DNA of 62,069 nt, counting the filler. It is 6 parts of 6 records of this genome, joined end to end, with 100 filler letters (N's around TTAATTAATTAA, not from the genome) between each part and the next. Parts side by side here need not be neighbours in the genome. Positions count along the whole stretch, not along the records: positions 56,658 to 62,069 come from SRR31147125_3224; 5 more parts are not named here. One strand, 5' to 3'. A program made the translations under genes and the position numbers. Positions 3,566 to 61,631 of this stretch are shown here, in pieces. The stretch's first letter is position 1. The number at the start of each line of letters is the position of its first letter. The notes below the pieces were generated by a model. It saw only the letters and a list, made by a program, of their open reading frames with translations. It ran no database searches and was not told where the DNA came from.

Positions 3566-6500
3566 TTATAAATTTATGAATGATTTTGTATTGATGACGA
3601 CGGTATCACGGCCATTATTTTTAGCTTTATAAACTGCCGAATCAGCCCATCTAATTAAGTCAGATATTTTAATATTTTCATTTGGAATAACTGATGCTAT
3701 ACCTATACTACAGGTAATGTATTTTTTAACAGAAGAAGTTTCATGAATTAAGTTAGCTTCTTTTAAATCAATTTGCAGCTTTTCAGCAAAGTCTTTAGCT
3801 CGTTTTACACTTGAATTAGGCAGTATAATACAGAATTCCTCTCCACCATATCTACAAACTAAATCGGCAGGTTGCTTCTCAACGTCTCGAAGTATTTGAG
3901 CAAATTCCCTCAAGCATTGATCGCCAGCTTGATGTCCATAATGGTCATTATATTTTTTGAAGCAGTCAATATCTAAGAAAATTAATGAAATAGATTTCTT
4001 TTCGTTTTTCATTCTTTTCCATTCCTCTTGAAGTGCTTTGTCAAAATAGCCGCGGTTTGGAATTTGCGTCAATGCATCAATTTTAACTAAATGTTCTAGT
4101 TTTTTGTTTGATTTTTCTAATTCAGCTGTTCGCTCCATTATTAATTTCTCTAGTTTTTTATTATTTCTTTTCAAAAACTTAATTCTATATAAATGAGAAG
4201 TTAATAATAAGGTGATTAAACTGACTACTGCAATAAGTCTAAAGAGATTATGCTCCCACCATGGTGGAGTAATTATTATTTCTACTTGGTCGGGAACTTT
4301 AGTCTTTAAACCATCACTATTTTCACCCTTTACCTTGAAGATATATTTACCAGGCTTGATATTAGTATATCTAACATAATTTCTGTTATGATTATTTATC
4401 CAGTCTTCTTCAAATCCCTCTAGTTTATAAAAAAATCGATTCTTACTTATGTCAGTATAATCAGTTAAAGTAAACTCAAAAGAAAAAAGAACATCTTTAT
4501 ATGAAAGTTTAAGTAGCTTAATTCGATCAATAGATTTTTCAAATTCAAATGATTCTTCAAATTTTTTAAAATTCCTAATAACTATCTTTGGAGCGGTGCT
4601 AGAAGCTTTAATCGAGCTTGGATTAAAGTAAGTAATTCCATTAATACCACCAAAATAAAGGACTCCACTTTTGCTTTTAAAATATACATTTTTATTAAAT
4701 TTATTTTCTTGTAAGCCATCATTCAAATGGAAATTTCTAAAGCTTACTAACTTGGGATTAAATTTTGAAAGACCAAAGTCAGTACTGAGCCAAAGATTTT
4801 CATCATCGTCATTCAAAATACTATATACAAGGTTATTGGATAAGTTGTGTTTAGTATTATATAAAATTGATGATTTGTTCATCTCACTAGCCTTTTTACT
4901 AAGGTCAGCTTTTAAATGATATAATCCTTTTCTCGAACCAAACCATAAACTATGATTATTATCTTCATATATGCAATAAACATAACCTTTTGAAAACTGA
5001 TGGAATGTCTCATTTTTTTCATCATAGAGGTTTAGGCCATTATTTGTTCCAAACCAAATATTATTCAGTGAATCTTTAAAAATAGAGTATACTTCATTTC
5101 CGCTTAAACCACTATGCGAATTATCACTTTTAATATGTTTTGTAATATTTTTACTCTCCATATCAAATATGAAAGCCCCATTACCATAGGTTCCAATAAA
5201 TAAACTACCATTTTTCACTTCTTTAATAGTAAGGAGTATGTTTTTCACTGTATCTTGTGAAGATGAAATTTGGTACGATTCAAAATCATTAATCATAGAG
5301 TTATATTTGTATAATGTACCATTATTACTACCAAACCATAGAGCTCCAGTTTGGTCTAAAAATGAAGATAAAATAATTTTTGAGAGAGCAAGTGTTGTTT
5401 GTTTAGATTTAGGGTTATACATGTATAAACTAGAGCTATTACTTATCCAGAGATTTCCATCTCTATCCTCAATAATAGAATTAGTATTTGAATCTTTTTC
5501 ATAATCAACTAAATAAGAGAAAGTTGATTTGGGATTAAATTTATTTATTCCTCCACCTCTTGTACCTAGCCAAATTAGCCCACTTCTGTCTTTATAAACA
5601 GAACGAATATCAGAAAAATTAGTATTACTAAATTTTGACCCCTTATTTGAGAAAAAATCAATATATTGCTCTTTTTCGCTGTTAAATTTAAACAAGCCCC
5701 TTGATGTACCTACCCATACGATATTATCCTCATCCTCTAAGATTGAGTTTACGGATATTCTTTGAGATGGATTATCAGGAAGCTTTGGAATAAAGTGTTT
5801 AAACTTTCTTTCCTTTGGTAAAAACAGGTTCATTCCATTGTTTGTACCAATCCAGATCTTTCCATTACTCCCTTTATGTAGAGTTCTAATTTGTTTGAAA
5901 CTAGGCCCTTTTTCATCATTACTACTTGGTAAAAATCTAGTGAATTTATCTGTTTTAATATCTAGGACATTAAGCCCATTGCTGGTCCCAACTATGATAT
6001 TGCCTTCATCATCTTCAGTGATTGCCCAAACCCTATTATTACTAAGGGTGTTTTGATTTCCTTCTTCATGTATATATCGCTGTATCTTATTTGTTCTTAA
6101 GTTAAGCTTGTTTAAGCCTCCTTTATATGTACCAATCCACAAATTGCTATTTGCATCCTGATAAAGAGACTGTACTCTATTATCACTTAAACTCTCCCGG
6201 GAGTTAGGATTGTGTAGATAGTGCACGAACTTTTTATTGTCAGAATCGTACATATTTAGTCCGCCACCCCAAGTGCCTATCCAAACGTTTCCTTGTCTAT
6301 CTAAATAGATATTACTAGCCGAATTACTGGATATTGATGAAAGGTTATCATCATCGTGCTCAAAAGTTGTGAATTTATAGCCATCATACATGTTTAATTT
6401 ATCCTCTGTACCAAACCACATAAATCCTTGATGATCCTGAACAATAGAGTAAACAACGTTATTTGACAGCCCATCATCTACAGTATAGGAATCAAATTTT

Positions 6501-6589
6501 ATATTTTCAACCTCTTCAAAATTAACTGAAAAAACCATAATATTCATTAATAAAAAACTATAAAACAATATTAGAAATTTTTTAATCAT
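3566..6589 (-). CDS. Membrane-anchored diguanylate cyclase with beta-propeller (Reg_prop) and YYY sensor domains
   Basis: Signal peptide, many LWIGTxxGL propeller repeats, YTNIKPGKYIFKV (YYY), PPWW + TM, DALTQIPNR, DIDCFKKYNDHYGHQAGD, RYGGEEF. Confidence 0.92.
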   Translation of the reverse strand: MIKKFLILFYSFLLMNIMVFSVNFEEVENIKFDSYTVDDGLSNNVVYSIVQDHQGFMWFGTEDKLNMYDGYKFTTFEHDDDNLSSISSNSASNIYLDRQGNVWIGTWGGGLNMYDSDNKKFVHYLHNPNSRESLSDNRVQSLYQDANSNLWIGTYKGGLNKLNLRTNKIQRYIHEEGNQNTLSNNRVWAITEDDEGNIIVGTSNGLNVLDIKTDKFTRFLPSSNDEKGPSFKQIRTLHKGSNGKIWIGTNNGMNLFLPKERKFKHFIPKLPDNPSQRISVNSILEDEDNIVWVGTSRGLFKFNSEKEQYIDFFSNKGSKFSNTNFSDIRSVYKDRSGLIWLGTRGGGINKFNPKSTFSYLVDYEKDSNTNSIIEDRDGNLWISNSSSLYMYNPKSKQTTLALSKIILSSFLDQTGALWFGSNNGTLYKYNSMINDFESYQISSSQDTVKNILLTIKEVKNGSLFIGTYGNGAFIFDMESKNITKHIKSDNSHSGLSGNEVYSIFKDSLNNIWFGTNNGLNLYDEKNETFHQFSKGYVYCIYEDNNHSLWFGSRKGLYHLKADLSKKASEMNKSSILYNTKHNLSNNLVYSILNDDDENLWLSTDFGLSKFNPKLVSFRNFHLNDGLQENKFNKNVYFKSKSGVLYFGGINGITYFNPSSIKASSTAPKIVIRNFKKFEESFEFEKSIDRIKLLKLSYKDVLFSFEFTLTDYTDISKNRFFYKLEGFEEDWINNHNRNYVRYTNIKPGKYIFKVKGENSDGLKTKVPDQVEIIITPPWWEHNLFRLIAVVSLITLLLTSHLYRIKFLKRNNKKLEKLIMERTAELEKSNKKLEHLVKIDALTQIPNRGYFDKALQEEWKRMKNEKKSISLIFLDIDCFKKYNDHYGHQAGDQCLREFAQILRDVEKQPADLVCRYGGEEFCIILPNSSVKRAKDFAEKLQIDLKEANLIHETSSVKKYITCSIGIASVIPNENIKISDLIRWADSAVYKAKNNGRDTVVINTKSFINL

Positions 6590-6755
6590 AATTATTTACA
6601 CTTCCTTCTATGACACAAAATTCTCTTTAATGTAATTATAGCATCATTGATAAAAAAATGCAAAATCAAAAATTCATCATCGCAATCAATTGAATGAAAA
6701 TATCTAAAATTATATCTTTAATTAATAACATAATATGAATTTAAAGTTAATTAAT

Positions 6756-6786
6756 AAAAAAACAACTCTTTTGTCAAGAGTTGTTT
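6756..6786 (-). terminator. Intrinsic terminator downstream of the HD-like gene
   Basis: AAACAACTCTT-ttgtc-AAGAGTTGTTT with an A tract on + (U tail on -). Confidence 0.7.
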
Positions 6787-6859
6787 AGGTTAGAAATGAT
6801 ATTAAGTTTTTTTGGCAATATTAACGACTATTTTATTACTCTTTCATTTTTAGAGGATT

Positions 6860-7414
6860 TTAGTCCTCGCTAATCTCCAGAAAGATACTTTGAGCAACAT
6901 CCTCTGAAACTTCCCTAGAATATTTCTCTTTCAATTTCAATTCTTCCTTACTTTCTGGTAGATAACATTCGAATTTACCAATGATGTTATTATTAAAATA
7001 GTTAATAGTTTCTTCCAATGTTTGATTTCTGGCAGTTCCCGTAACTAGTGATTTCACTATTTGGAAATAGTTTCCTCCTTCTAAAATATGTGCATCATGT
7101 AGTATTTTCTCTTCTGTTGTTACAGGTGCTAAATCTTTATGCGAAGCTTTAACTATATTGATAATTTGAGTAATAGCAATCCCATCAAAATTTAGCTCGT
7201 GTAATAGCTTACTTATTTTCGCTTCTTCTTCTTTTATCATTCCGTGGAAGTATGCACCATATTCTATTGATTCAAAGTCAACACTGTAAGTACTACTGAT
7301 ATCCTTAGCTTTATTAATAACTCTCTTAATATGCGAGAAGTTATGCATGATATCTTTTTCTGCATAATACGGTGTTACAAACTCAATTATTTTGGCTTTA
7401 TTGTTTTGGCTCAA
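6860..7414 (-). CDS. HD-domain-like putative phosphohydrolase (degenerate motif)
   Basis: HNFSHIKRV, AYFHG in place of HD, ASH, EEKILHDAH; TTG start. Confidence 0.65.
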   Translation of the reverse strand: MSQNNKAKIIEFVTPYYAEKDIMHNFSHIKRVINKAKDISSTYSVDFESIEYGAYFHGMIKEEEAKISKLLHELNFDGIAITQIINIVKASHKDLAPVTTEEKILHDAHILEGGNYFQIVKSLVTGTARNQTLEETINYFNNNIIGKFECYLPESKEELKLKEKYSREVSEDVAQSIFLEISED

Positions 7415-7447
7415 AATTTTCTCACTTTCTAAATTGTTATTTTGTTG

Positions 7448-7603
7448 TTATAATTTTGGAAAATTTTTAGTAAATAAACTTTTTATATTAATACTAAGGT
7501 ATAGGTAGCATGATCTCCACTTAGCGGAGTAAACTCCTCTTTGTAATTCTAATTTACTAAACTCAGACCAAAGTCTCATTCCAGTATCAACTAAGAAAAG
7601 AAA
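7448..7603 (-). pseudogene. Possible tyrosine-recombinase relic (box I fragment)
   Basis: Stop-to-stop minus frame reads FLFLVDTGMRLWSEFSKLE, resembling the LxxTGMRxSE box I; no other integrase motifs. Confidence 0.3.
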
Positions 7604-7634
7604 TTACCCCTTATTTTGATTAATCCAATACATT

Positions 7635-8543
7635 CTAGGCATAGACTTCTACAGCACTATATTTAAGGAATCCATTGTCAACATTTAACTCAATTAAGTT
7701 ACTTTCATAGAGATATTCAATATAAAATCTAAGCATCCTCTCTACAACGATATATTTATTGACTGATTGAATTTTGATACTCCATGTTTTAACAATAATT
7801 TTTAAAATCTCCTCAAAAGTCATTGGGGATTCAATTAATCTAAGCAGATGTTCAGCCCTACCTGTATAATAGGCAATATTATCTTTTATTAGATCACTTA
7901 TATCATCTTTCACTCCCTTATGGGCGATAATATACTTTTCGCTCTGCAAATTATATAGGTTCATTTTACTTTTAAGGTCTTGTTGAAGGTCATATGCATA
8001 TGGTAATTTAGTACCTGTCATAACTTTTTCGGTAATAAGTGCATCACCTAAATATGCAATATTATCAGGTGTAATAATTGAAATGTGACCCAAAGTATGA
8101 CCTGGAGTGTAGAAAATTTTAAACATGATACCATTAATATACACGCTTGTTTGTTCTTTGCTAATTATTATATCTGTTTCGCAAACAAGATGCTCGTAGT
8201 GTTCCTTTACACACGACAAAAAATGTCGATTGTAGTATTCTTTTAGAGATGTTACCGAGCTACAAATATGTGCAGAAAAAGCAGACATTGCAATAACGCA
8301 TCCATGTTTTTCCTTAAAATAAGCATTATTTCCAATATGATCTATGTGGCTATGGCTATTTATGATTCCAACAATCTGAAAATTATTATAATCAAAGAGT
8401 GTATCTAGCTCTTGTTGTTCTCCTTTTGCCCATCCAGAGTCTAATAATATTATTTTTTTATCATCTAGTTTATAAAAAGGTATGTAGGTCATACCAGTAT
8501 CAATACAGAATGTGTTTCCTTTTATATGAATAATTTCGTACAT
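7635..8543 (-). CDS. Metallo-beta-lactamase-fold hydrolase
   Basis: LLDSG, HSHIDHIG (HxHxDH), TPGHT, YLGDA, IAH motifs; AGGAG RBS. Confidence 0.9.
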   Translation of the reverse strand: MYEIIHIKGNTFCIDTGMTYIPFYKLDDKKIILLDSGWAKGEQQELDTLFDYNNFQIVGIINSHSHIDHIGNNAYFKEKHGCVIAMSAFSAHICSSVTSLKEYYNRHFLSCVKEHYEHLVCETDIIISKEQTSVYINGIMFKIFYTPGHTLGHISIITPDNIAYLGDALITEKVMTGTKLPYAYDLQQDLKSKMNLYNLQSEKYIIAHKGVKDDISDLIKDNIAYYTGRAEHLLRLIESPMTFEEILKIIVKTWSIKIQSVNKYIVVERMLRFYIEYLYESNLIELNVDNGFLKYSAVEVYA

Positions 8544-10009: not shown

Positions 10010-10109
10010 NNNNNNNNNNNNNNNNNNNNNNNNNNNNNNNNNNNNNNNNNNNNTTAATTAATTAANNNNNNNNNNNNNNNNNNNNNNNNNNNNNNNNNNN
10101 NNNNNNNNN
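10010..10109. other. Artificial contig-joining spacer
   Basis: 44 N + TTAATTAATTAA (stop in all six frames) + 44 N. Confidence 0.98.
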
Positions 10110-30697: not shown

Positions 30698-30797
30698 NNN
30701 NNNNNNNNNNNNNNNNNNNNNNNNNNNNNNNNNNNNNNNNNTTAATTAATTAANNNNNNNNNNNNNNNNNNNNNNNNNNNNNNNNNNNNNNNNNNNN
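30698..30797. other. Artificial contig-joining spacer
   Basis: 44 N + TTAATTAATTAA + 44 N. Confidence 0.98.
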
Positions 30798-44783: not shown

Positions 44784-44883
44784 NNNNNNNNNNNNNNNNN
44801 NNNNNNNNNNNNNNNNNNNNNNNNNNNTTAATTAATTAANNNNNNNNNNNNNNNNNNNNNNNNNNNNNNNNNNNNNNNNNNNN
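44784..44883. other. Artificial contig-joining spacer
   Basis: 44 N + TTAATTAATTAA + 44 N. Confidence 0.98.
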
Positions 44884-49915: not shown

Positions 49916-50015
49916 NNNNNNNNNNNNNNNNNNNNNNNNNNNNNNNNNNNNNNNNNNNNTTAATTAATTAANNNNNNNNNNNNNNNNNNNNNNNNNNNNN
50001 NNNNNNNNNNNNNNN
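49916..50015. other. Artificial contig-joining spacer
   Basis: 44 N + TTAATTAATTAA + 44 N. Confidence 0.98.
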
Positions 50016-56557: not shown

Positions 56558-56657
56558 NNNNNNNNNNNNNNNNNNNNNNNNNNNNNNNNNNNNNNNNNNN
56601 NTTAATTAATTAANNNNNNNNNNNNNNNNNNNNNNNNNNNNNNNNNNNNNNNNNNNN
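56558..56657. other. Artificial contig-joining spacer
   Basis: 44 N + TTAATTAATTAA + 44 N. Confidence 0.98.
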
Positions 56658-57486: not shown

Positions 57487-57889
57487 AATTAATTGTTTCC
57501 CAAAAAAAATGACCAATGAATCATATGCATCAATAATCATTTCCTCAATTCTATATAACATAAAAATGCTAAATAATCAAGTTCATCTAAAAAAACAGGG
57601 GGTTCTCCAAAAATTTGGGGGTGTTTAAATAATTGAACTTCGATTGCTTACTATTTAGTTCAACAAAACTTAACTTGTATGCTCGTTAGAATATCCACCC
57701 TATCAATTAAGAAAACAATTTTCGATAGTGATTCTGATGATTTTCCGATCTGCTCACATGCTGCAGCGACAGTGTGTATGAAGGGTTTTTCCCGGAAGTA
57801 AAGAGGCCGCCTGCGCCGGCAAAGCAAACAGGCAGCCCAACAGTTAACAACGATTTTAATCGTTATTACCAACGCCAAAATTAATAATA

Positions 57890-58213
57890 ATGGCAACTTT
57901 AAATGAAAAAGAAAGTCGTGATTTTGTACAACAAGTAATTGTTATCGTCAACCAGAATGCCAGTTTGCTTACTGATGCCGGATTTGATCCAACCTCCCGA
58001 ACTGGGGAATTGCAAACCAAACTGCAAACTGCCGACGATTCAGAAGGAGAACAGCAAAAGATTCAAGCTGCTGCACTCGACGCTACAAAGCAAGCCACCG
58101 CTACACTTAAGTTGGCTTACGATGATGCATCGTCTTTTGTAAGCCTAATTGAAGGTTTGCTCGGAAAGGACAATAGCCTGGTACATAAATTGCGCCAGCT
58201 ACGGAAAAAGTAA
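57890..58213 (+). CDS. Hypothetical 107-aa helical protein
   Basis: Clean ORF with an AT-rich leader, amphipathic helical composition, followed by a strong terminator. Confidence 0.8.
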   Translation: MATLNEKESRDFVQQVIVIVNQNASLLTDAGFDPTSRTGELQTKLQTADDSEGEQQKIQAAALDATKQATATLKLAYDDASSFVSLIEGLLGKDNSLVHKLRQLRKK

Positions 58214-58222
58214 GTCCGTGTT

Positions 58223-58260
58223 AAAAAAATTCCACCTTTTCTCTGAGGTGGGATTTTTTT
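58223..58260. terminator. Bidirectional intrinsic terminator
   Basis: AAAAAAATtCCACCT-N7-AGGTGGgATTTTTTT. Confidence 0.85.
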
Positions 58261-58294
58261 GGTTTTCCTACCCCTGAACCGCTACCTGAAAAAC

Positions 58295-58567
58295 CATAAG
58301 ATCATCATAATCGGATACCCGATAGCCTTTCTACCCAACAAGATCGTCATCATCTTTCATAAGATCATCGCCATCTTACATCAGATGATCATTCGCTGAC
58401 GGAAGATCAAGACTATCTTGTATAAGATAACGTTGCTACCCCATAAGATCGCCTTCATCTTGTATCAGATAATGCCTGTCGGGTGGAAGATGATCATTCT
58501 CTTGTATAAGATAAAGGCCGTCTGGCACCAGATGATCGTCCTCTTACGCATAATGATCAATTCATCG
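58295..58567. repeat. Degenerate tandem array, 13 x 21 bp, approximate consensus YATMAGAT-N7-ATCTTN
   Basis: AGAT at unit positions 5-8 in 11 of 13 units, exact 21-bp register without indels; stops in all six frames. Confidence 0.85.
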
Positions 58568-58742
58568 CGAGCACAAAACCTGCCACAACCCCTATAAATA
58601 AAGGATAACAGGCTCATCAAATGAAGACTGGAAGAAAAATCGTCTTAAGCTAGTGCGCGATTATATTACGTTTGTTTTAGTACTTACTTTGCTGTTTGTT
58701 CCAAAAGGATAGAATTGTGCAGCAAAGAGAGTGTTAATCACA

Positions 58743-59124
58743 TTAAAATTCAATTGGTGATATTTTCTCACTTTCAGTAGCATTCCAAAACTCCTTAATT
58801 TTAACAGCTATCCACATAAAGAAACGATAAATTATCCATAAGAATAAAACGACACCTGCAATACGAAAAGCCCATACCAATATATCCCGAAAAAAACGAC
58901 CAACAAAAAAAGCAATGTTAACAATAATTGATTTCCAAAACCAGATTTGTCCACTTAAGATACCTTCTTATACTGACAGCTCCTTTATTTAGAATTTTTA
59001 AAATGAATGAACCCAAAAATGTCTTAAATGCATCAATGTGTTTTCCAACAAAAGAGGATTGAATTGCTTTTTGTACTGCAGGTTGACCAAGCAATTCATT
59101 TATAGAACCAAAAATATTATCCAT
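58743..59124 (-). CDS. Hypothetical small membrane protein, split by frameshift
   Basis: ORF 58918-59124 continues after a one-base shift near 58969 as EGILSGQIWFWKSIIVNIAFFVGRFFRDILVWAFRIAGVVLFLWIIYRFFMWIAVKIKEFWNATESEKISPIEF*. Confidence 0.45.
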
Positions 59125-59273: not shown

Positions 59274-60449
59274 TTAACTTTTCTGTCTTTCGCAAACAAA
59301 ATTTACGAATTTATCCAATGTCCAAATCTCATTATGATGCTCTTTTGGAAAACATTTTAAATAAGGTTGAGGAACCACTAATGTAACGCCTAAATCTTTC
59401 ATCTCCTTAAGTTGATTCATTGAAATGCCTTGTTGAAGCGTGAAAAGATGTTTGTGTGGTATTCGATCTGCTTCACTTACTATTTGCCTCCATCTATCTT
59501 TGCACGTTGTTTTTGCACCGAGAAATACCAAGTTATTACTACCTATTGACTCTTCAAAATATCTCTCAATACTCGGGAATATGAAATCAGGTTTTTTATT
59601 TGATTCTGTAGTTGCTTGAGATGTGTAATTAATATTCCAAACATCAAATATTCTAGACAAGTGATGTTCAAGTGATTTACCAGCACGAGATTTTCTTCGG
59701 TTAAGAACTGTATTGGCAATTCTAACTAATTCATCAACAGTCTGTATAGGCTCAGTAATAATATTGCTATATCTATCATTCTCAATCGCTTTAAACAAAT
59801 TGAACTCGGTTGAAATCCAATTTAACAATTCTCTATCTGGTCTTCGTAGAACTGACTCTAAAGTGAGTCCATAAGCTTCAAAAAATAATTCTCTTGCTCC
59901 ATTTGCTAAATCAATTGTTGGAGGAAAATCAACTGTTAATCTTTCAATGAAAATCTTGAATAATTTATGAAGTTTTTCTTCAGAAGAAAGAATACTTGAC
60001 TTAGGAAGAATCCCATTAGTTTCTGTAGGCGAAATTCCAAAAGCATTAAAGAAACCTTCAATGTCTAAATCATCAGATAATACAAAAGCTTCATAGTACT
60101 TATCATCTTTCTTTGCAATAACAATTAAATCTCCAGTATTATCTTCATTTAGGAATGGAAATCCTCTTCCAAAACGTGTTAAACGATATTCATTTCGCGT
60201 CCCAACACCGTAATATGTAAACCGACTATCTGTCTCAAAATCATCCTGCCATTTAATTCTTATGAAAACATCTTTATTAGCCCCTTTTACACCAGGACTA
60301 TCAAAGAACAATGACCAAGAATGTTTATGAATATGAAAACCTGCTTGGTGCCCACCAGTAGCTCCAGTATCATTGGCAGTAATAAATTTACTGAATGCAA
60401 TTGAACTATTATTACATGATTCAATTGCTAAGGATAAAAGATTATTCAT
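59274..60449 (-). CDS. Type IIE restriction endonuclease, EcoRII-like
   Basis: N-terminal effector domain KFITANDTGATGGHQAG; NRRKSRAGKSLE, KPDFIFP, GAKTTCKDRWRQ, HLFTLQQG. Confidence 0.92.
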   Translation of the reverse strand: MNNLLSLAIESCNNSSIAFSKFITANDTGATGGHQAGFHIHKHSWSLFFDSPGVKGANKDVFIRIKWQDDFETDSRFTYYGVGTRNEYRLTRFGRGFPFLNEDNTGDLIVIAKKDDKYYEAFVLSDDLDIEGFFNAFGISPTETNGILPKSSILSSEEKLHKLFKIFIERLTVDFPPTIDLANGARELFFEAYGLTLESVLRRPDRELLNWISTEFNLFKAIENDRYSNIITEPIQTVDELVRIANTVLNRRKSRAGKSLEHHLSRIFDVWNINYTSQATTESNKKPDFIFPSIERYFEESIGSNNLVFLGAKTTCKDRWRQIVSEADRIPHKHLFTLQQGISMNQLKEMKDLGVTLVVPQPYLKCFPKEHHNEIWTLDKFVNFVCERQKS

Positions 60450-61631
60450 AACTTTTATTTAAGATCTTGGCAATTTGTTTTGCAACCTCTTCCATTAAAG
60501 GCACTACAACGGAGTTGCCAAATTGCTTATATGCCTGATTATCTGACACAGGTATTTTGAATCCTTCAGGATATCCCTGTAATCTAGCACACTCTCGAGG
60601 CGTCAATCTTCTAGGATTTCTACCATATTGAGGTACTAATACCTCAGCACCGTCTTTATAATATCTTGCAGATAAAGTTCTACTAATACCATCAAGTTCG
60701 GTCAACCCAAATCCAAATCCATTTCCTTTAGCTTTATGTTTTTTTGCATAATTCTGTAAGTAAATCCATAGTCTATCAGATAGAGTATATTTAGGATCGG
60801 GATTTGCATCTAATATATCTTCAAAAACCATATTGAGTTTTGGCATATCTGGAAAAGAGAATTGTTCATTCCCATTAAATCGTACCTTATCAAACCCAAT
60901 AATTAGAATTCTTTCTCGATGTTGAGGGACAAAATGCTGGCCATCCAATATCTGAATATGAAGATTATAGTTTAGCTTTTCAAGGGTCTTTTTATAACCT
61001 TTAAGGTGCGACCTTTATCATGTGATCTCAAATTTTTTACATTTTCAAGCATAAAGGCCTTTGGTCTTCTTTCTTCAATAATTCGAGCTACATCAAAAAA
61101 TAACGTTCCTTGTGTTTCATCTAAAAACCCATGATTTCTTCCTAAACTATTTTTTTTAGATACACCTGCAATCGAAAAAGGTTGACACGGAAAACCTCCA
61201 ACCAAAACATCATGCTCAGGTATAAACTTTTCATTAATTCTAGTAATATCACCAAAAGGGACTTCGCCAAAGTTTGCCTCATAAGTAATTCTGGCAAACT
61301 TATCCCACTCAGATGAGAATATACATTTCCCTCCAGCGTTTTGATGCGCAATTCTCATCCCCCCAATTCCTGCGAACAAATCAATGAACTTATATTCTGC
61401 ATTTTCAGGTGGAGGAAAGGGAACATCAAATTTTAAGGGAAGAGCAAAATTAAATTCTTCTACTACATCCAATGCATCCGATTCAATAAAATCTAATATC
61501 CCATTATTATAATTGGATAATGAAAAAGCATCTGGACTTTGCAAATAATGAGTGAAAAATGCATGTTCTTCATTAAAATATCTTACAGTATCCAGCCCAA
61601 GTTTTTTCCTAACTACAGTATATTTTGCCAT
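60442..61631 (-). CDS. dcm: DNA (cytosine-5) methyltransferase, Dcm/M.EcoRII-like, split by frameshift
   Basis: [43 protein letters not shown]; adding one base to T5 60989-60993 joins the two ORFs. Confidence 0.92.

What the first reader, a model, noticed from the sequence alone, without database searches (positions are those of the whole stretch)
58295..58567. Unexplained 13 x 21-bp quasi-palindromic array with a 105-bp higher-order period
Seen: from 58295 the units are cataagatcatcataatcgga / tacccgatagcctttctaccc / aacaagatcgtcatcatcttt / cataagatcatcgccatctta / catcagatgatcattcgctga / cggaagatcaagactatcttg / tataagataacgttgctaccc / cataagatcgccttcatcttg / tatcagataatgcctgtcggg / tggaagatgatcattctcttg / tataagataaaggccgtctgg / caccagatgatcgtcctctta / cgcataatgatcaattcatcg. 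The 21-bp register (two helical turns) has no indels despite heavy substitution. Units contain AAGAT-N7-ATCTT around a variable 7-mer. Junctions form ATCTT-N4-AAGAT hairpins, two with compensatory changes (ATCGG-atac-CCGAT, gTCTG-gcac-CAGAt). Units 2-6 resemble units 7-11 (shared ends CTACCC, AAGATCGyCwTCATCTT, AGATGATCATTC), giving a 5-unit super-period. All six frames contain stops, and it is not CRISPR-like (7-nt variable part, no cas). Inference: a phased protein-binding array or a structured RNA under selection for period and symmetry. Alternative: a decayed heptad-repeat ORF, since one + frame (HKIIIIG YPIAFLP NKIVIIF...) has only one TGA, at 58397.
Basis: partly seen in the sequence, partly recalled or inferred. 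Interest (0 to 1): 0.8.

Follow-up and report, generated by a model that had tools for sequence, protein, structure and literature searches.

The report
Small-protein gene with 21-bp repeat array
The 13 x 21-bp array is real and non-coding, and it is one copy of an undescribed element in which a small coiled-coil protein gene is almost always followed by its own strictly 21-bp-spaced repeat array, most likely a row of binding sites for that protein.

Summary
Window 58295-58567 is a 13-unit, indel-free 21-bp array with stops in all six frames.

It is not an isolated oddity. Of 44 homolog loci of the upstream 107-aa ORF with enough flank:
- 40 carry a 21-bp-period array just after the gene's terminator;
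- 1 carries it upstream;
- 3 have none.

The period is constant, but the repeated motif differs between paralogs. It is often a 5+4+5 palindrome. Up to 7 paralogs occur per genome. Extra "orphan" arrays of the same motif types lie elsewhere in the same genomes.

Between orthologs, the two 5-nt arms diverge at 5%. The spacers diverge at 17-24%, and 4-fold codon sites at 22%. Indels are mostly whole units.

Three lines argue against a coding remnant or a structured RNA:
- there is no conserved ORF;
- codon periodicity appears only in the window's motif type;
- there is no base-pair covariation, and only 57% of arm positions pair.

The protein matches no known family and is predicted to form a symmetric antiparallel coiled-coil dimer.

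Best reading (about 0.45): a phased double-stranded-DNA binding-site array for the adjacent protein. No binding or transcription data exist. The module looks new.

The parts
57735..57889 (+). Conserved 5' region of the module. It holds a promoter-like block and a leader with hairpins. The best-supported hairpin (P3) lies at about 57805-57837, and a further hairpin lies just before the start codon.
   Evidence: Upstream regions of 15 loci align. The P3 hairpin is kept in all 15, and 3 of its 7 pairs show changes on both sides. No Rfam family matches.
57890..58213 (+). 107-aa ORF, a small all-helical protein of no known family. It is the only gene conserved next to the arrays.
   Evidence: ORF. 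Homologs: 65 proteins and 183 representative clusters. Codon-position identity of about 0.95-0.99, 0.97-0.99 and 0.78-0.93 between close orthologs shows protein-level selection. No Pfam, NCBIfam or PADLOC hit; one PHROG of unknown function at E 0.06. AlphaFold2 pLDDT 89, with helices 6-22, 24-29, 35-91 and 96-106.
58223..58261 (.). Terminator hairpin between the gene and the array. An A-run precedes it and a T-run follows it, so it could act in both directions.
   Evidence: Read from the sequence. An equivalent hairpin plus T-run follows the gene in the homologous loci printed.
58295..58567 (.). The array: 13 units of 21 bp. Each junction carries a degenerate ATCTT-N4-AAGAT core, separated by 7 variable bases. 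Two more degenerate units may lie at 58253-58294.
58572..58615 (-). Candidate minus-strand terminator-like hairpin abutting the right end of the array.
   Evidence: My own hairpin plus T-run scan (dG -12.1). Clear minus-strand equivalents exist in L003, L004 and L009, and weaker ones in L026, L010 and L032. It is not universal.

Best explanation
The array is the cis element of a self-contained module of about 1.1 kb, built as conserved leader, 107-aa gene, terminator, then a 21-bp array.

I read the array as double-stranded DNA carrying a row of degenerate two-armed sites (5 nt, 4 nt, 5 nt, then a 7-nt spacer). The sites are spaced exactly two helical turns apart, so all face the same side of the helix. 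Symmetric dimers of the adjacent coiled-coil protein would bind them cooperatively and form a nucleoprotein filament.

Each paralog of the protein has its own arm sequence. It would also act in trans on 'orphan' arrays of the same type elsewhere in the chromosome.

Shown:
- the gene-array linkage;
- the constant period;
- paralog-specific motifs;
- selection on arms and period;
- absence of coding or RNA-pairing signatures;
- orphan copies.

Inferred:
- that the protein is the binder;
- that the target is DNA rather than RNA;
- what the complex does (organising, insulating or titrating).
For: 1. Linkage. Distinct full-length loci with at least 400 bp of flank:
- window plus L001-L013: 14 of 14 have an array (L006 displaced about 1.6 kb by an insertion);
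- new paralogs L021-L026: 6 of 6;
- metagenome: 3 of 4;
- two distant homologs: one downstream, one upstream;
- a fresh set of 18: 16 have an array.
In the fresh set the upstream control reached lag-21 of 0.46 or more in 1 of 20 loci. The gene is the only ORF shared by all loci.

2. Period. The best lag is 21 or 42 in 22 of 22 arrays. Each exceeds the highest value among its own 300 shuffles at either lag 21 or lag 42, and 20 of the 22 do so at lag 21 itself (the two that do so only at lag 42 are L002 and L005, on the numbers).

3. Motifs differ per paralog, including 6 types in one genome, and are mostly 5+4+5 palindromes.

4. Selection. In three ortholog pairs the arms diverge at 22/413, the 7-nt spacer at 48/282 and the 4-nt spacer at 40/165. 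The gene's 4-fold sites in the same pairs diverge at 30/136. Indels are mostly 21, 42 or 63 bp.

5. A position upstream of the gene in L036, and orphan arrays in either orientation, fit a DNA site that works irrespective of transcript context.

6. L003 and L004 have two-way terminators on both sides of the array.

7. Homodimer prediction: score 0.66, best of 3 controls 0.00. That mark was reached by 21 of 30 proteins solved as pairs of one chain and by 0 of 23 solved as single chains. The runs agree in at least 92% of contacts and pLDDT is at least 90. The contacts imply an antiparallel two-fold dimer centred near residue 60. The model supports pairing; it does not show it.
Against: - No binding data of any kind exist.
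- The protein is mildly acidic overall by my count (13 basic, 15 acidic residues). It has no recognisable DNA-binding fold.
- Its most conserved part, the basic C-terminal helix, is the same in paralogs with different motifs. No obvious specificity-determining segment stands out.
- Two arrays (L013, L021) are not palindromic.
- Some arrays mix two arm types without pairing them.
- Some orphan arrays start about 20 nt after a stop codon and would be transcribed as 3' UTR.
- Motif differences tracking protein phylogeny are also what common descent of a duplicated module would give.
- 3 of 44 loci have the gene without a nearby array: L034 is a 35%-identity homolog, L042 has an in-frame TGA, and L055 is followed by an IS-like ORF.
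Confidence: 0.45

Rival explanations
1. RNA-level partner. The array is transcribed, either by read-through of the gene's terminator or as a 3' UTR. The repeat RNA would bind, sequester or be processed by the protein, as repeat RNAs do in type III toxin-antitoxin pairs or protein-sponge RNAs.
For: - The arrangement of gene, terminator, then repeats resembles a type III toxin-antitoxin locus with the order reversed. The abstract starts listed (PMC8860590, PMC13682666) describe a protein toxin plus an antitoxin made of RNA repeats.
- 5-bp arms around 4 nt could form small hairpins.
- Some orphan arrays begin right after a stop codon with no terminator between (L067).
- The module has a structured RNA leader.
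Against: - Only 642 of 1125 arm positions are Watson-Crick.
- 342 of the 483 exceptions are neither G-U nor its complement, and G-U shows no excess on the gene strand (52 against 89).
- No covariation among 103 distinct units.
- In some arrays the palindrome can be read with as little as a 2-nt centre, which is too small for an RNA hairpin loop (my reading of the units printed; the 5+4+5 reading fits the same arrays).
- There is no room for a promoter between terminator and array.
- Arrays occur in both orientations and once upstream of the gene.
- No purine bias.
- No ToxN-like or PADLOC family hit.
Confidence: 0.2
2. Self-propagating dispersed repeat. The arrays spread in the genome for their own sake, as REP/REPIN elements do with their linked RAYT gene. 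The small protein would be the factor that maintains or spreads them, with no benefit to the host.
For: - Orphan arrays of the same motif type occur in the genomes that hold the matching gene. For the AAGAT type there are 5 extra clusters in G001 and 2 in G002, against none in G003.
- For the ATGGA and CAAC/GTTG types there are extra copies in G001.
- Homology between orphans and modules stops at the array edges.
- Orphans lie in varied intergenic sites, often at the 3' ends of genes.
- Distribution is patchy: 22 of 121 family genomes and 2 of 300 other class genomes.
- Clusters of the AAGAT type appear in only 3 of 121 genomes, all three gene-positive.
Against: - The protein has no nuclease, recombinase or HUH motif detectable by Pfam, and 107 helical residues are unlikely to catalyse transposition.
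- No target duplications or terminal structures were seen.
- Orthologous arrays sit at syntenic places over about 25% flank divergence (L006 against L007), so movement is rare.
- This rival also needs the protein to recognise the arrays, so it overlaps with the best explanation.
Confidence: 0.15
3. Decayed heptad-repeat coding sequence.
For: - 21 bp equals 7 codons.
- Lag-3 identity is raised in the AAGAT-type arrays (z 2.1-4.8).
- One + frame in the window has a single stop.
- A few arrays have an open frame (L007, L009, L013; L068 and L064).
- One look-alike 21-bp repeat in G001 truly codes for STKVE-type heptads inside a 670-aa ORF.
Against: - Stops occur in all six frames in 19 of the 22 arrays tabulated.
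- The frame with codon-like composition carries TAA at a conserved unit position.
- Lag-3 periodicity is absent in 13 of the 14 arrays of other motif types.
- Substitutions by unit position sum to 33/33/44 over the three phases (my arithmetic).
- Decay would not keep arms at 5% divergence or keep arrays in 40 of 44 loci.
Confidence: 0.02
4. Neutral slippage satellite with no function.
For: - Higher-order duplications of 2 to 7 units are common.
- Unit number varies from 9 to about 24.
Against: - The same 21-bp period holds across unrelated motifs.
- The position next to one gene family is fixed.
- The arms evolve several times slower than the spacers and than 4-fold sites.
Confidence: 0.02

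Closest known systems
Plasmid centromere arrays with their binding-protein gene (F sopB-sopC, R1 or pSK41 parR-parC). Recalled from general knowledge, not from a call.
   Same: A tandem array of units at a fixed, helical-turn-commensurate period lies next to the gene of a small protein thought to coat it. The units contain an inverted repeat, and the array can lie downstream of the gene.
   Different: - No partition NTPase gene is nearby.
- No ribbon-helix-helix or helix-turn-helix fold was found.
- The module is chromosomal.
- Up to 7 diverged paralogs occur per genome.
- Orphan arrays exist.
Iteron arrays that titrate an initiator (for example P1 incA downstream of repA). Recalled.
   Same: Direct repeats spaced about two helical turns apart lie downstream of the gene whose product binds them.
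   Different: - No Rep-type protein is present.
- No origin features were seen.
- The units are dyad-symmetric and far more degenerate.
REP/REPIN elements with their RAYT gene. Recalled.
   Same: One gene is physically linked to a copy of its cognate repeat. Further copies are dispersed in intergenic 3' regions. Different paralogs in one genome each have their own repeat type.
   Different: - The protein is not a Y1/HUH transposase.
- The repeats are phased tandem arrays, not single or paired hairpins.
- Arm pairing is not conserved.
Type III toxin-antitoxin loci (ToxIN, CptIN, TenpIN). Abstract starts seen in the listing; the rest is recalled.
   Same: A protein gene and a tandem nucleic-acid repeat are separated by a terminator, and the repeat type is specific to the protein.
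   Different: - Here the repeats follow the gene instead of preceding it.
- The unit is 21 nt, against about 36 nt or more.
- There is no endoribonuclease family hit.
- There is no RNA-structure signal.
CRISPR arrays
   Same: A conserved core alternates with a variable stretch, and both gene-linked and orphan arrays exist.
   Different: - The variable part is 7 nt and is conserved between orthologs at about the neutral rate.
- No conserved neighbour gene of any kind besides the 107-aa ORF.
- The repeats themselves are degenerate.

Membership tests
CRISPR array | Near-identical repeats of 23 bp or more, separated by unique spacers of similar or greater length | tested here: not met
   The unit is 21 bp in total, with a 14-bp degenerate core and a 7-bp spacer. 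Units are about 50% alike.
CRISPR array | cas genes adjacent | tested here: not met
   The only ORF cluster shared by all loci is the 107-aa gene. Window neighbours are EcoRII, Dcm and an unassigned ORF.
Type III toxin-antitoxin | Repeat array upstream of the toxin gene, with a terminator between them | tested here: not met
   The order is gene, terminator, array in 40 loci. The single upstream case (L036) lies about 220 bp before the gene.
Type III toxin-antitoxin | Toxin of a ToxN, CptN or TenpN endoribonuclease family | tested here: not met
   No Pfam hit at E up to 0.1 and no PADLOC hit at E up to 1.
Type III toxin-antitoxin | Repeat RNA is made and cut into units that bind the toxin | not testable with these tools
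   No RNA data could be obtained. This needs RNA-seq and biochemistry.
Partition centromere plus centromere-binding protein | Tandem repeats next to the gene of the small binding protein | tested here: met
   40 of 44 loci have the array downstream and 1 has it upstream.
Partition centromere plus centromere-binding protein | ParA, ParM or TubZ-type NTPase gene in the same operon | tested here: not met
   No second ORF is conserved among the loci.
Partition centromere plus centromere-binding protein | Binding protein with a ribbon-helix-helix or helix-turn-helix fold | tested here: inconclusive
   The model is all-helical with a 57-residue helix. Fold searches gave only generic helical matches.
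Iteron / Rep origin | Adjacent Rep initiator gene and origin features | tested here: not met
   The adjacent protein has 107 aa and no Rep family hit. It is multi-copy on chromosomes.
REP/REPIN-RAYT | Dispersed copies of the repeat, plus a copy linked to the gene | tested here: met
   Orphan arrays of three motif types occur in G001 and of one in G002. Homology is limited to the array.
REP/REPIN-RAYT | Linked gene encodes a Y1/HUH transposase | tested here: not met
   No such Pfam or NCBIfam hit.
REP/REPIN-RAYT | Repeat forms a conserved hairpin | tested here: not met
   57% of arm positions pair and there is no covariation.
Any Rfam RNA family | Covariance-model match at or near the gathering score | tested here: not met
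   The best hits were 29 bits against a threshold of 50 (window) and 34 against 55 (loci). Both fall on terminator-like hairpins.
Heptad-repeat protein-coding gene or pseudogene | An open frame in relatives, and codon-patterned composition and substitution | tested here: not met

The most novel reading that the evidence does not exclude
A chromosomal 'address-tag' system. Each paralogous antiparallel coiled-coil dimer would act as a ruler about as long as one 21-bp period. It would polymerise end to end on its private set of arrays, both gene-linked and orphan. Neighbouring dimer ends would meet on each two-armed core. The result would be several orthogonal, sequence-addressed nucleoprotein filaments that pair, anchor or insulate chosen chromosomal sites.

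The arrays would spread like REPINs. Because 21 bp equals 7 codons, they could occasionally be taken into genes as heptad linkers.
Probability: 0.15. Interest if true: 0.9.

Novelty: categorically new. Interest (0 to 1): 0.8.

Why it matters
If the reading is right, this is a previously undescribed class of protein/cis-element pair in Bacteroidota (family Prolixibacteraceae and a few relatives). It combines several unusual properties:
- a period fixed at exactly two helical turns, whatever the sequence;
- private recognition motifs for each paralog within one cell;
- gene-linked plus dispersed target arrays.

This gives a natural set of mutually orthogonal DNA-address/protein pairs. It is also a clean case for studying how a binding protein and its sites diversify together, and it is directly testable in cultured, harmless marine bacteria.

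Even if the function proves to be selfish or RNA-based, three things are new and unannotated: the protein family, the arrays and the conserved structured leader.

Tried and rejected
- **Whole-genome access.** No genome is held for the window, so all comparison went through related loci.
- **Earlier findings.** Nothing was returned.
- **Rfam.** No family for the array or the leader.
- **Protein families.** Pfam, NCBIfam, PADLOC and PHROGs give nothing for the 107-aa protein or for 10 distant relatives, beyond sub-threshold noise. A PDB sequence-profile search gave only E 0.19.
- **Fold searches.** Foldseek against the PDB found no match at E of 0.001 or better. VIA-align gave a best Z of 7.3 on generic long-helix proteins, within the tool's stated noise range for helical models. 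This shows neither a new fold nor a known one.
- **Protein atlas.** Only unnamed Bacteroidota clusters; the named leads scored 0.86 and 0.78, both under the 0.9 the tool asks for.
- **Viral contigs.** No relative found.
- **Sequencing runs.** No RNA holder is listed, and the three DNA rows hold only small shares of the query words. I did not lay reads.
- **Literature.** Four full-text searches found nothing on such arrays (and, for type III systems, 44). I saw listings and abstract starts only and read no paper. Supplements are closed and could hold relevant tables.
- **Gene 3' end duplicated after the array.** This idea was rejected by tblastn: no hit better than E 0.018, and none collinear.
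- **An operator copy of the motif upstream of the gene.** Not seen by eye.
- **Consistent left/right arm asymmetry relative to the gene.** It holds in the AAGAT type, but only 5 of 9 other arrays agree.
- **A special meaning for the 105-bp super-period.** A 5-unit period is the commonest higher-order period (6 of 18 arrays with one, plus the window and L054 by eye). However, periods of 2, 3, 4, 6 and 7 units also occur, so I treat it as segmental duplication.
- **AAGAT pattern census over 121 genomes.** Scattered single hits make the background too noisy for a clean table against gene presence.

Full report
**What is in the window**

Self-identity is 0.49 at lag 21, 0.55 at lag 42 and 0.58 at lag 105. 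In 1000 shuffles the best lag had a mean of 0.34 and never exceeded 0.42. The three-arm pattern AAGAT-N7-ATCTT-N4-AAGAT, with up to 2 mismatches, occurs 6 times here against 0.9 expected in the whole window. All six frames carry stops.

The array lies in a gap between two features:
- To the left is a 107-aa ORF (57890-58213, + strand), followed by a hairpin with an A-run before it and a T-run after it (58223-58261).
- To the right are three overlapping minus-strand ORF pieces (58743-59124) that look like one frameshifted small membrane-protein gene.

Further right is an EcoRII-type endonuclease gene, a C5-methylase gene split by a frameshift, and a probable Vsr-type gene by my recognition of its end sequence, which I did not test. 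No whole genome is held for the window.

The 107-aa protein has relatives in Draconibacterium, Sunxiuqinia, Mangrovibacterium, Carboxylicivirga and unnamed Prolixibacteraceae. In all 13 genome loci, a 21-bp-period array follows the gene's terminator hairpin. In L006 it is pushed about 1.6 kb away by an insertion.

Searching five of those genomes found up to 7 copies of the gene per genome. The six new full-length paralogs each have an array, and a gene fragment (L027) keeps a short remnant array.

From metagenomes, three of the four loci with enough flank have an array. The exception is a 35%-identity homolog from a high-GC organism.

In an even sample of the class, 2 of 300 other genomes had the gene. 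One has the array downstream. The other has it about 220 bp upstream of the gene.

In the family, 22 of 121 genomes had the gene. I fetched 20 further loci as a fresh test:
- One lies on the same contig as L010, and one has only 117 bp of flank, which leaves 18.
- 16 of the 18 have an array. Of these, 13 reach lag-21 identity of at least 0.46 in a 168-bp window, 2 are dominated by a 42-bp period, and 1 is weak and was judged by eye.
- 2 of the 18 have none. One of those genes carries an in-frame TGA, and the other is followed by an IS-like ORF.
- The same scan upstream of the genes reached 0.46 in 1 of 20 loci.

Altogether, of 44 distinct loci, 40 have the array downstream, 1 has it upstream and 3 have none. 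No other ORF is shared by the loci. Two paralogs in one genome share a block of about 1.1 kb, running from about 250 bp before the start codon to about 95 bp past the array.

**What is constant and what varies**

The period is constant. The best lag is 21 or 42 in 22 of 22 arrays measured. Every one exceeds the highest value among its own 300 shuffles at either lag 21 or lag 42, and 20 of the 22 do so at lag 21 itself. Arrays have 9 to about 24 units. Single-base slips exist but are rare (L028, L029, L037).

The sequence is not constant. The window's type (arms ATCTT and AAGAT) is shared by proteins at least 76% identical to the window's. Other paralogs have other arms, such as CTGAC/GTCAG, AAC/GTT, AAAAA/TTTTT, ATGGA/TCCAT, ATCAAC/GTTGAT, GTAC/GTAC, CCC/GGG and TATTC/GAATA. 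Most are arranged as 5 nt, 4 nt, 5 nt, then a 7-nt spacer. Two arrays show no dyad symmetry. One genome holds six different types.

**Coding or not**

- Most arrays have stops in all six frames, and no frame is open across loci.
- Lag-3 periodicity is raised in the AAGAT-type arrays (z 2.1-4.8) and in one other type, but not in the remaining 13. It is therefore a property of that motif, not of the element.
- Substitutions between orthologous arrays sum to 33, 33 and 44 over the three phases (my arithmetic).

The decayed-ORF alternative is rejected.

One look-alike 21-bp repeat in G001 is truly coding. It gives STKVE-type heptads in the linker of a 670-aa protein. I record this as an aside.

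**RNA structure or not**

- Over 103 distinct AAGAT-type units, the two arms do not covary. All strong mutual information is between neighbouring bases.
- Over 17 arrays, only 642 of 1125 arm positions are Watson-Crick. Of the 483 exceptions, 342 are neither G-U nor its complement, and G-U is not enriched on the gene strand (52 against 89).
- In some arrays the palindrome can also be read with a centre of only 2 nt.
- Rfam has no match.
- There is no strand bias in purines.

**Selection**

Three ortholog pairs were compared. The arm pentamers differ at 22 of 413 aligned positions (5.3%), the 7-nt spacer at 48 of 282 (17%) and the 4-nt spacer at 40 of 165 (24%). Four-fold degenerate sites of the adjacent gene in the same pairs differ at 30 of 136 (22%). 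The spacers therefore drift at about the neutral rate while the arms are held. This includes the non-consensus arm words, which are conserved at orthologous positions. Length differences between orthologs are mostly 21, 42 or 63 bp.

**Orphan arrays**

A pattern search of three genomes gave the following:
- AAGAT-type clusters occur at five further places in G001 and two in G002. G003 has none beyond its module. The control pattern gave 0-1 hits per strand.
- The extra arrays have 10-14 units of the same unit types and lie in unrelated intergenic regions: after an ECF sigma gene, gltD, a sulfatase gene and tsf.
- Their similarity to module loci stops at the array edges, and one is inverted.
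- A second ATGGA-type array and further CAAC/GTTG-type arrays exist in G001.
- In a 121-genome scan, clusters of the AAGAT type were seen in three genomes only, all gene-positive. Scattered single hits make the background noisy.

**The protein**

It belongs to no Pfam, NCBIfam or PADLOC family. The family has 183 representative clusters, some of them tandem fusions. None was found in viral contigs.

AlphaFold2 (pLDDT 89, pTM 0.53) gives helices 6-22, 24-29, 35-91 and 96-106.

The homodimer test scored 0.66 against 0.00 for the best of three controls. That mark was reached by 21 of 30 proteins solved as pairs of one chain and by 0 of 23 solved as single chains. The runs agree in at least 92% of contacts and pLDDT is at least 90. 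The contacts (48 with 76, 51 with 69, 13 with 80) imply an antiparallel two-fold dimer. This supports pairing but does not show it.

A 57-residue helix is about 85 Å long, and 21 bp of B-DNA is about 71 Å. This is my arithmetic. It is suggestive only.

**A conserved leader**

About 150 nt before the start codon there is a promoter-like block and several hairpins, conserved even between paralogs with different arrays. One GC-rich hairpin is kept in 15 of 15 aligned loci, with changes on both sides in 3 of its 7 pairs. It matches no Rfam family.

**Reading**

The data fit a cis-acting, non-coding element whose arms and spacing are read sequence-specifically. The obvious reader is the only linked gene product, a predicted symmetric dimer.

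Several points favour duplex DNA over RNA:
- two-armed sites sit two helical turns apart;
- the spacers are neutral;
- the position before or after the gene, and the strand, do not matter;
- two-way terminators flank the array in some loci.

I put this at about 0.45. An RNA partner is at about 0.2, and a mainly selfish dispersed repeat is at about 0.15. The selfish-repeat reading overlaps with the first, since it also needs recognition.

What the complex would do (organise, insulate, titrate or pair loci) is open. The main weaknesses are listed in the Against line. There is no binding or expression data, the protein is acidic with no known DNA-binding fold, and its conserved basic tail does not vary with the motif.

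**Comparison with known systems**

It works most like centromere or iteron arrays placed beside the gene of their binding protein. Its population structure is most like REP/REPIN-RAYT. It fails a defining feature of each:
- no NTPase;
- no Rep protein;
- no HUH transposase;
- no conserved hairpin;
- no endoribonuclease, and the wrong gene order for type III toxin-antitoxin;
- no cas genes, and repeats that are too short and degenerate for CRISPR.

The resemblances to F sopC, parC, P1 incA and REPINs are recalled from general knowledge, not drawn from a call. Four literature searches found no description (listings only). I therefore rate it as a new kind of element, with the function still to be shown.

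Noticed in passing
window 57735-57889, and the same region in L001-L008, L011, L012, L022, L023, L025, L026: A conserved structured 5' leader lies ahead of the 107-aa gene, made of a promoter-like block plus several hairpins. One GC-rich hairpin is kept in 15 of 15 loci with covarying pairs. No Rfam family matches. It may be a new cis-regulatory RNA.
   Followed up: partly
window 60442-61631 (- strand): The C5 cytosine methylase gene next to an intact EcoRII-type endonuclease gene (59274-60449) is split into two ORFs by a frameshift near 60950-60972. This is either an assembly error or a broken methylase beside a whole nuclease.
   Followed up: partly
window 58743-59124 (- strand): Three overlapping ORF pieces (68, 40 and 45 aa) look like one frameshifted small membrane-protein gene running toward the array. 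The 68-aa piece has no Pfam hit.
   Followed up: no
window 58295-58567: GATC occurs 9 times in the 273-bp array. The window average of 3.1 per kb predicts about 0.8. Related arrays of the same motif type have 1-4, so the excess is peculiar to this copy.
   Followed up: partly
L066 1702-2031 (G001:C1, about 160.5 kb): A 21-bp repeat with the same CAACC..GGTTG core as one array type lies inside a 670-aa ORF. It encodes about 11 STKVE-type heptads in the linker before a beta-propeller-like domain. This may be chance likeness, or an array taken into a gene.
   Followed up: partly
window array, plus L004, L011, L026, L040, L058, L060 and L054: A five-unit (105-bp) higher-order repeat recurs in several arrays of different motif types. 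It is the commonest higher-order period, but periods of 2, 3, 4, 6 and 7 units also occur.
   Followed up: partly
L006 about 6400-7930: In Draconibacterium orientale, the space between the gene's terminator and the array holds an insertion of about 1.5 kb. It looks like two tandem copies of a segment of about 920 bp, each with a small minus-strand ORF and GC-rich hairpins.
   Followed up: no
L041 1646-1890, and L013: Some arrays alternate two different arm types (CCCC/GGGG and GTAC) and also combine them in hybrid cores. This gives a 42-bp super-unit.
   Followed up: no
proteins P0066-P0068, P0071, P0072, P0074: Some family members are tandem fusions of two copies of the domain (about 211-265 aa). 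Their genomic context could not be seen.
   Followed up: no
window 10010-10109, 30698-30797, 44784-44883, 49916-50015, 56558-56657: There are five paired blocks of 44 N separated by 12 bases. These are masked stretches that interrupt ORFs, for example at 56558-56657 between the ORFs ending at 56609 and 56606.
   Followed up: no
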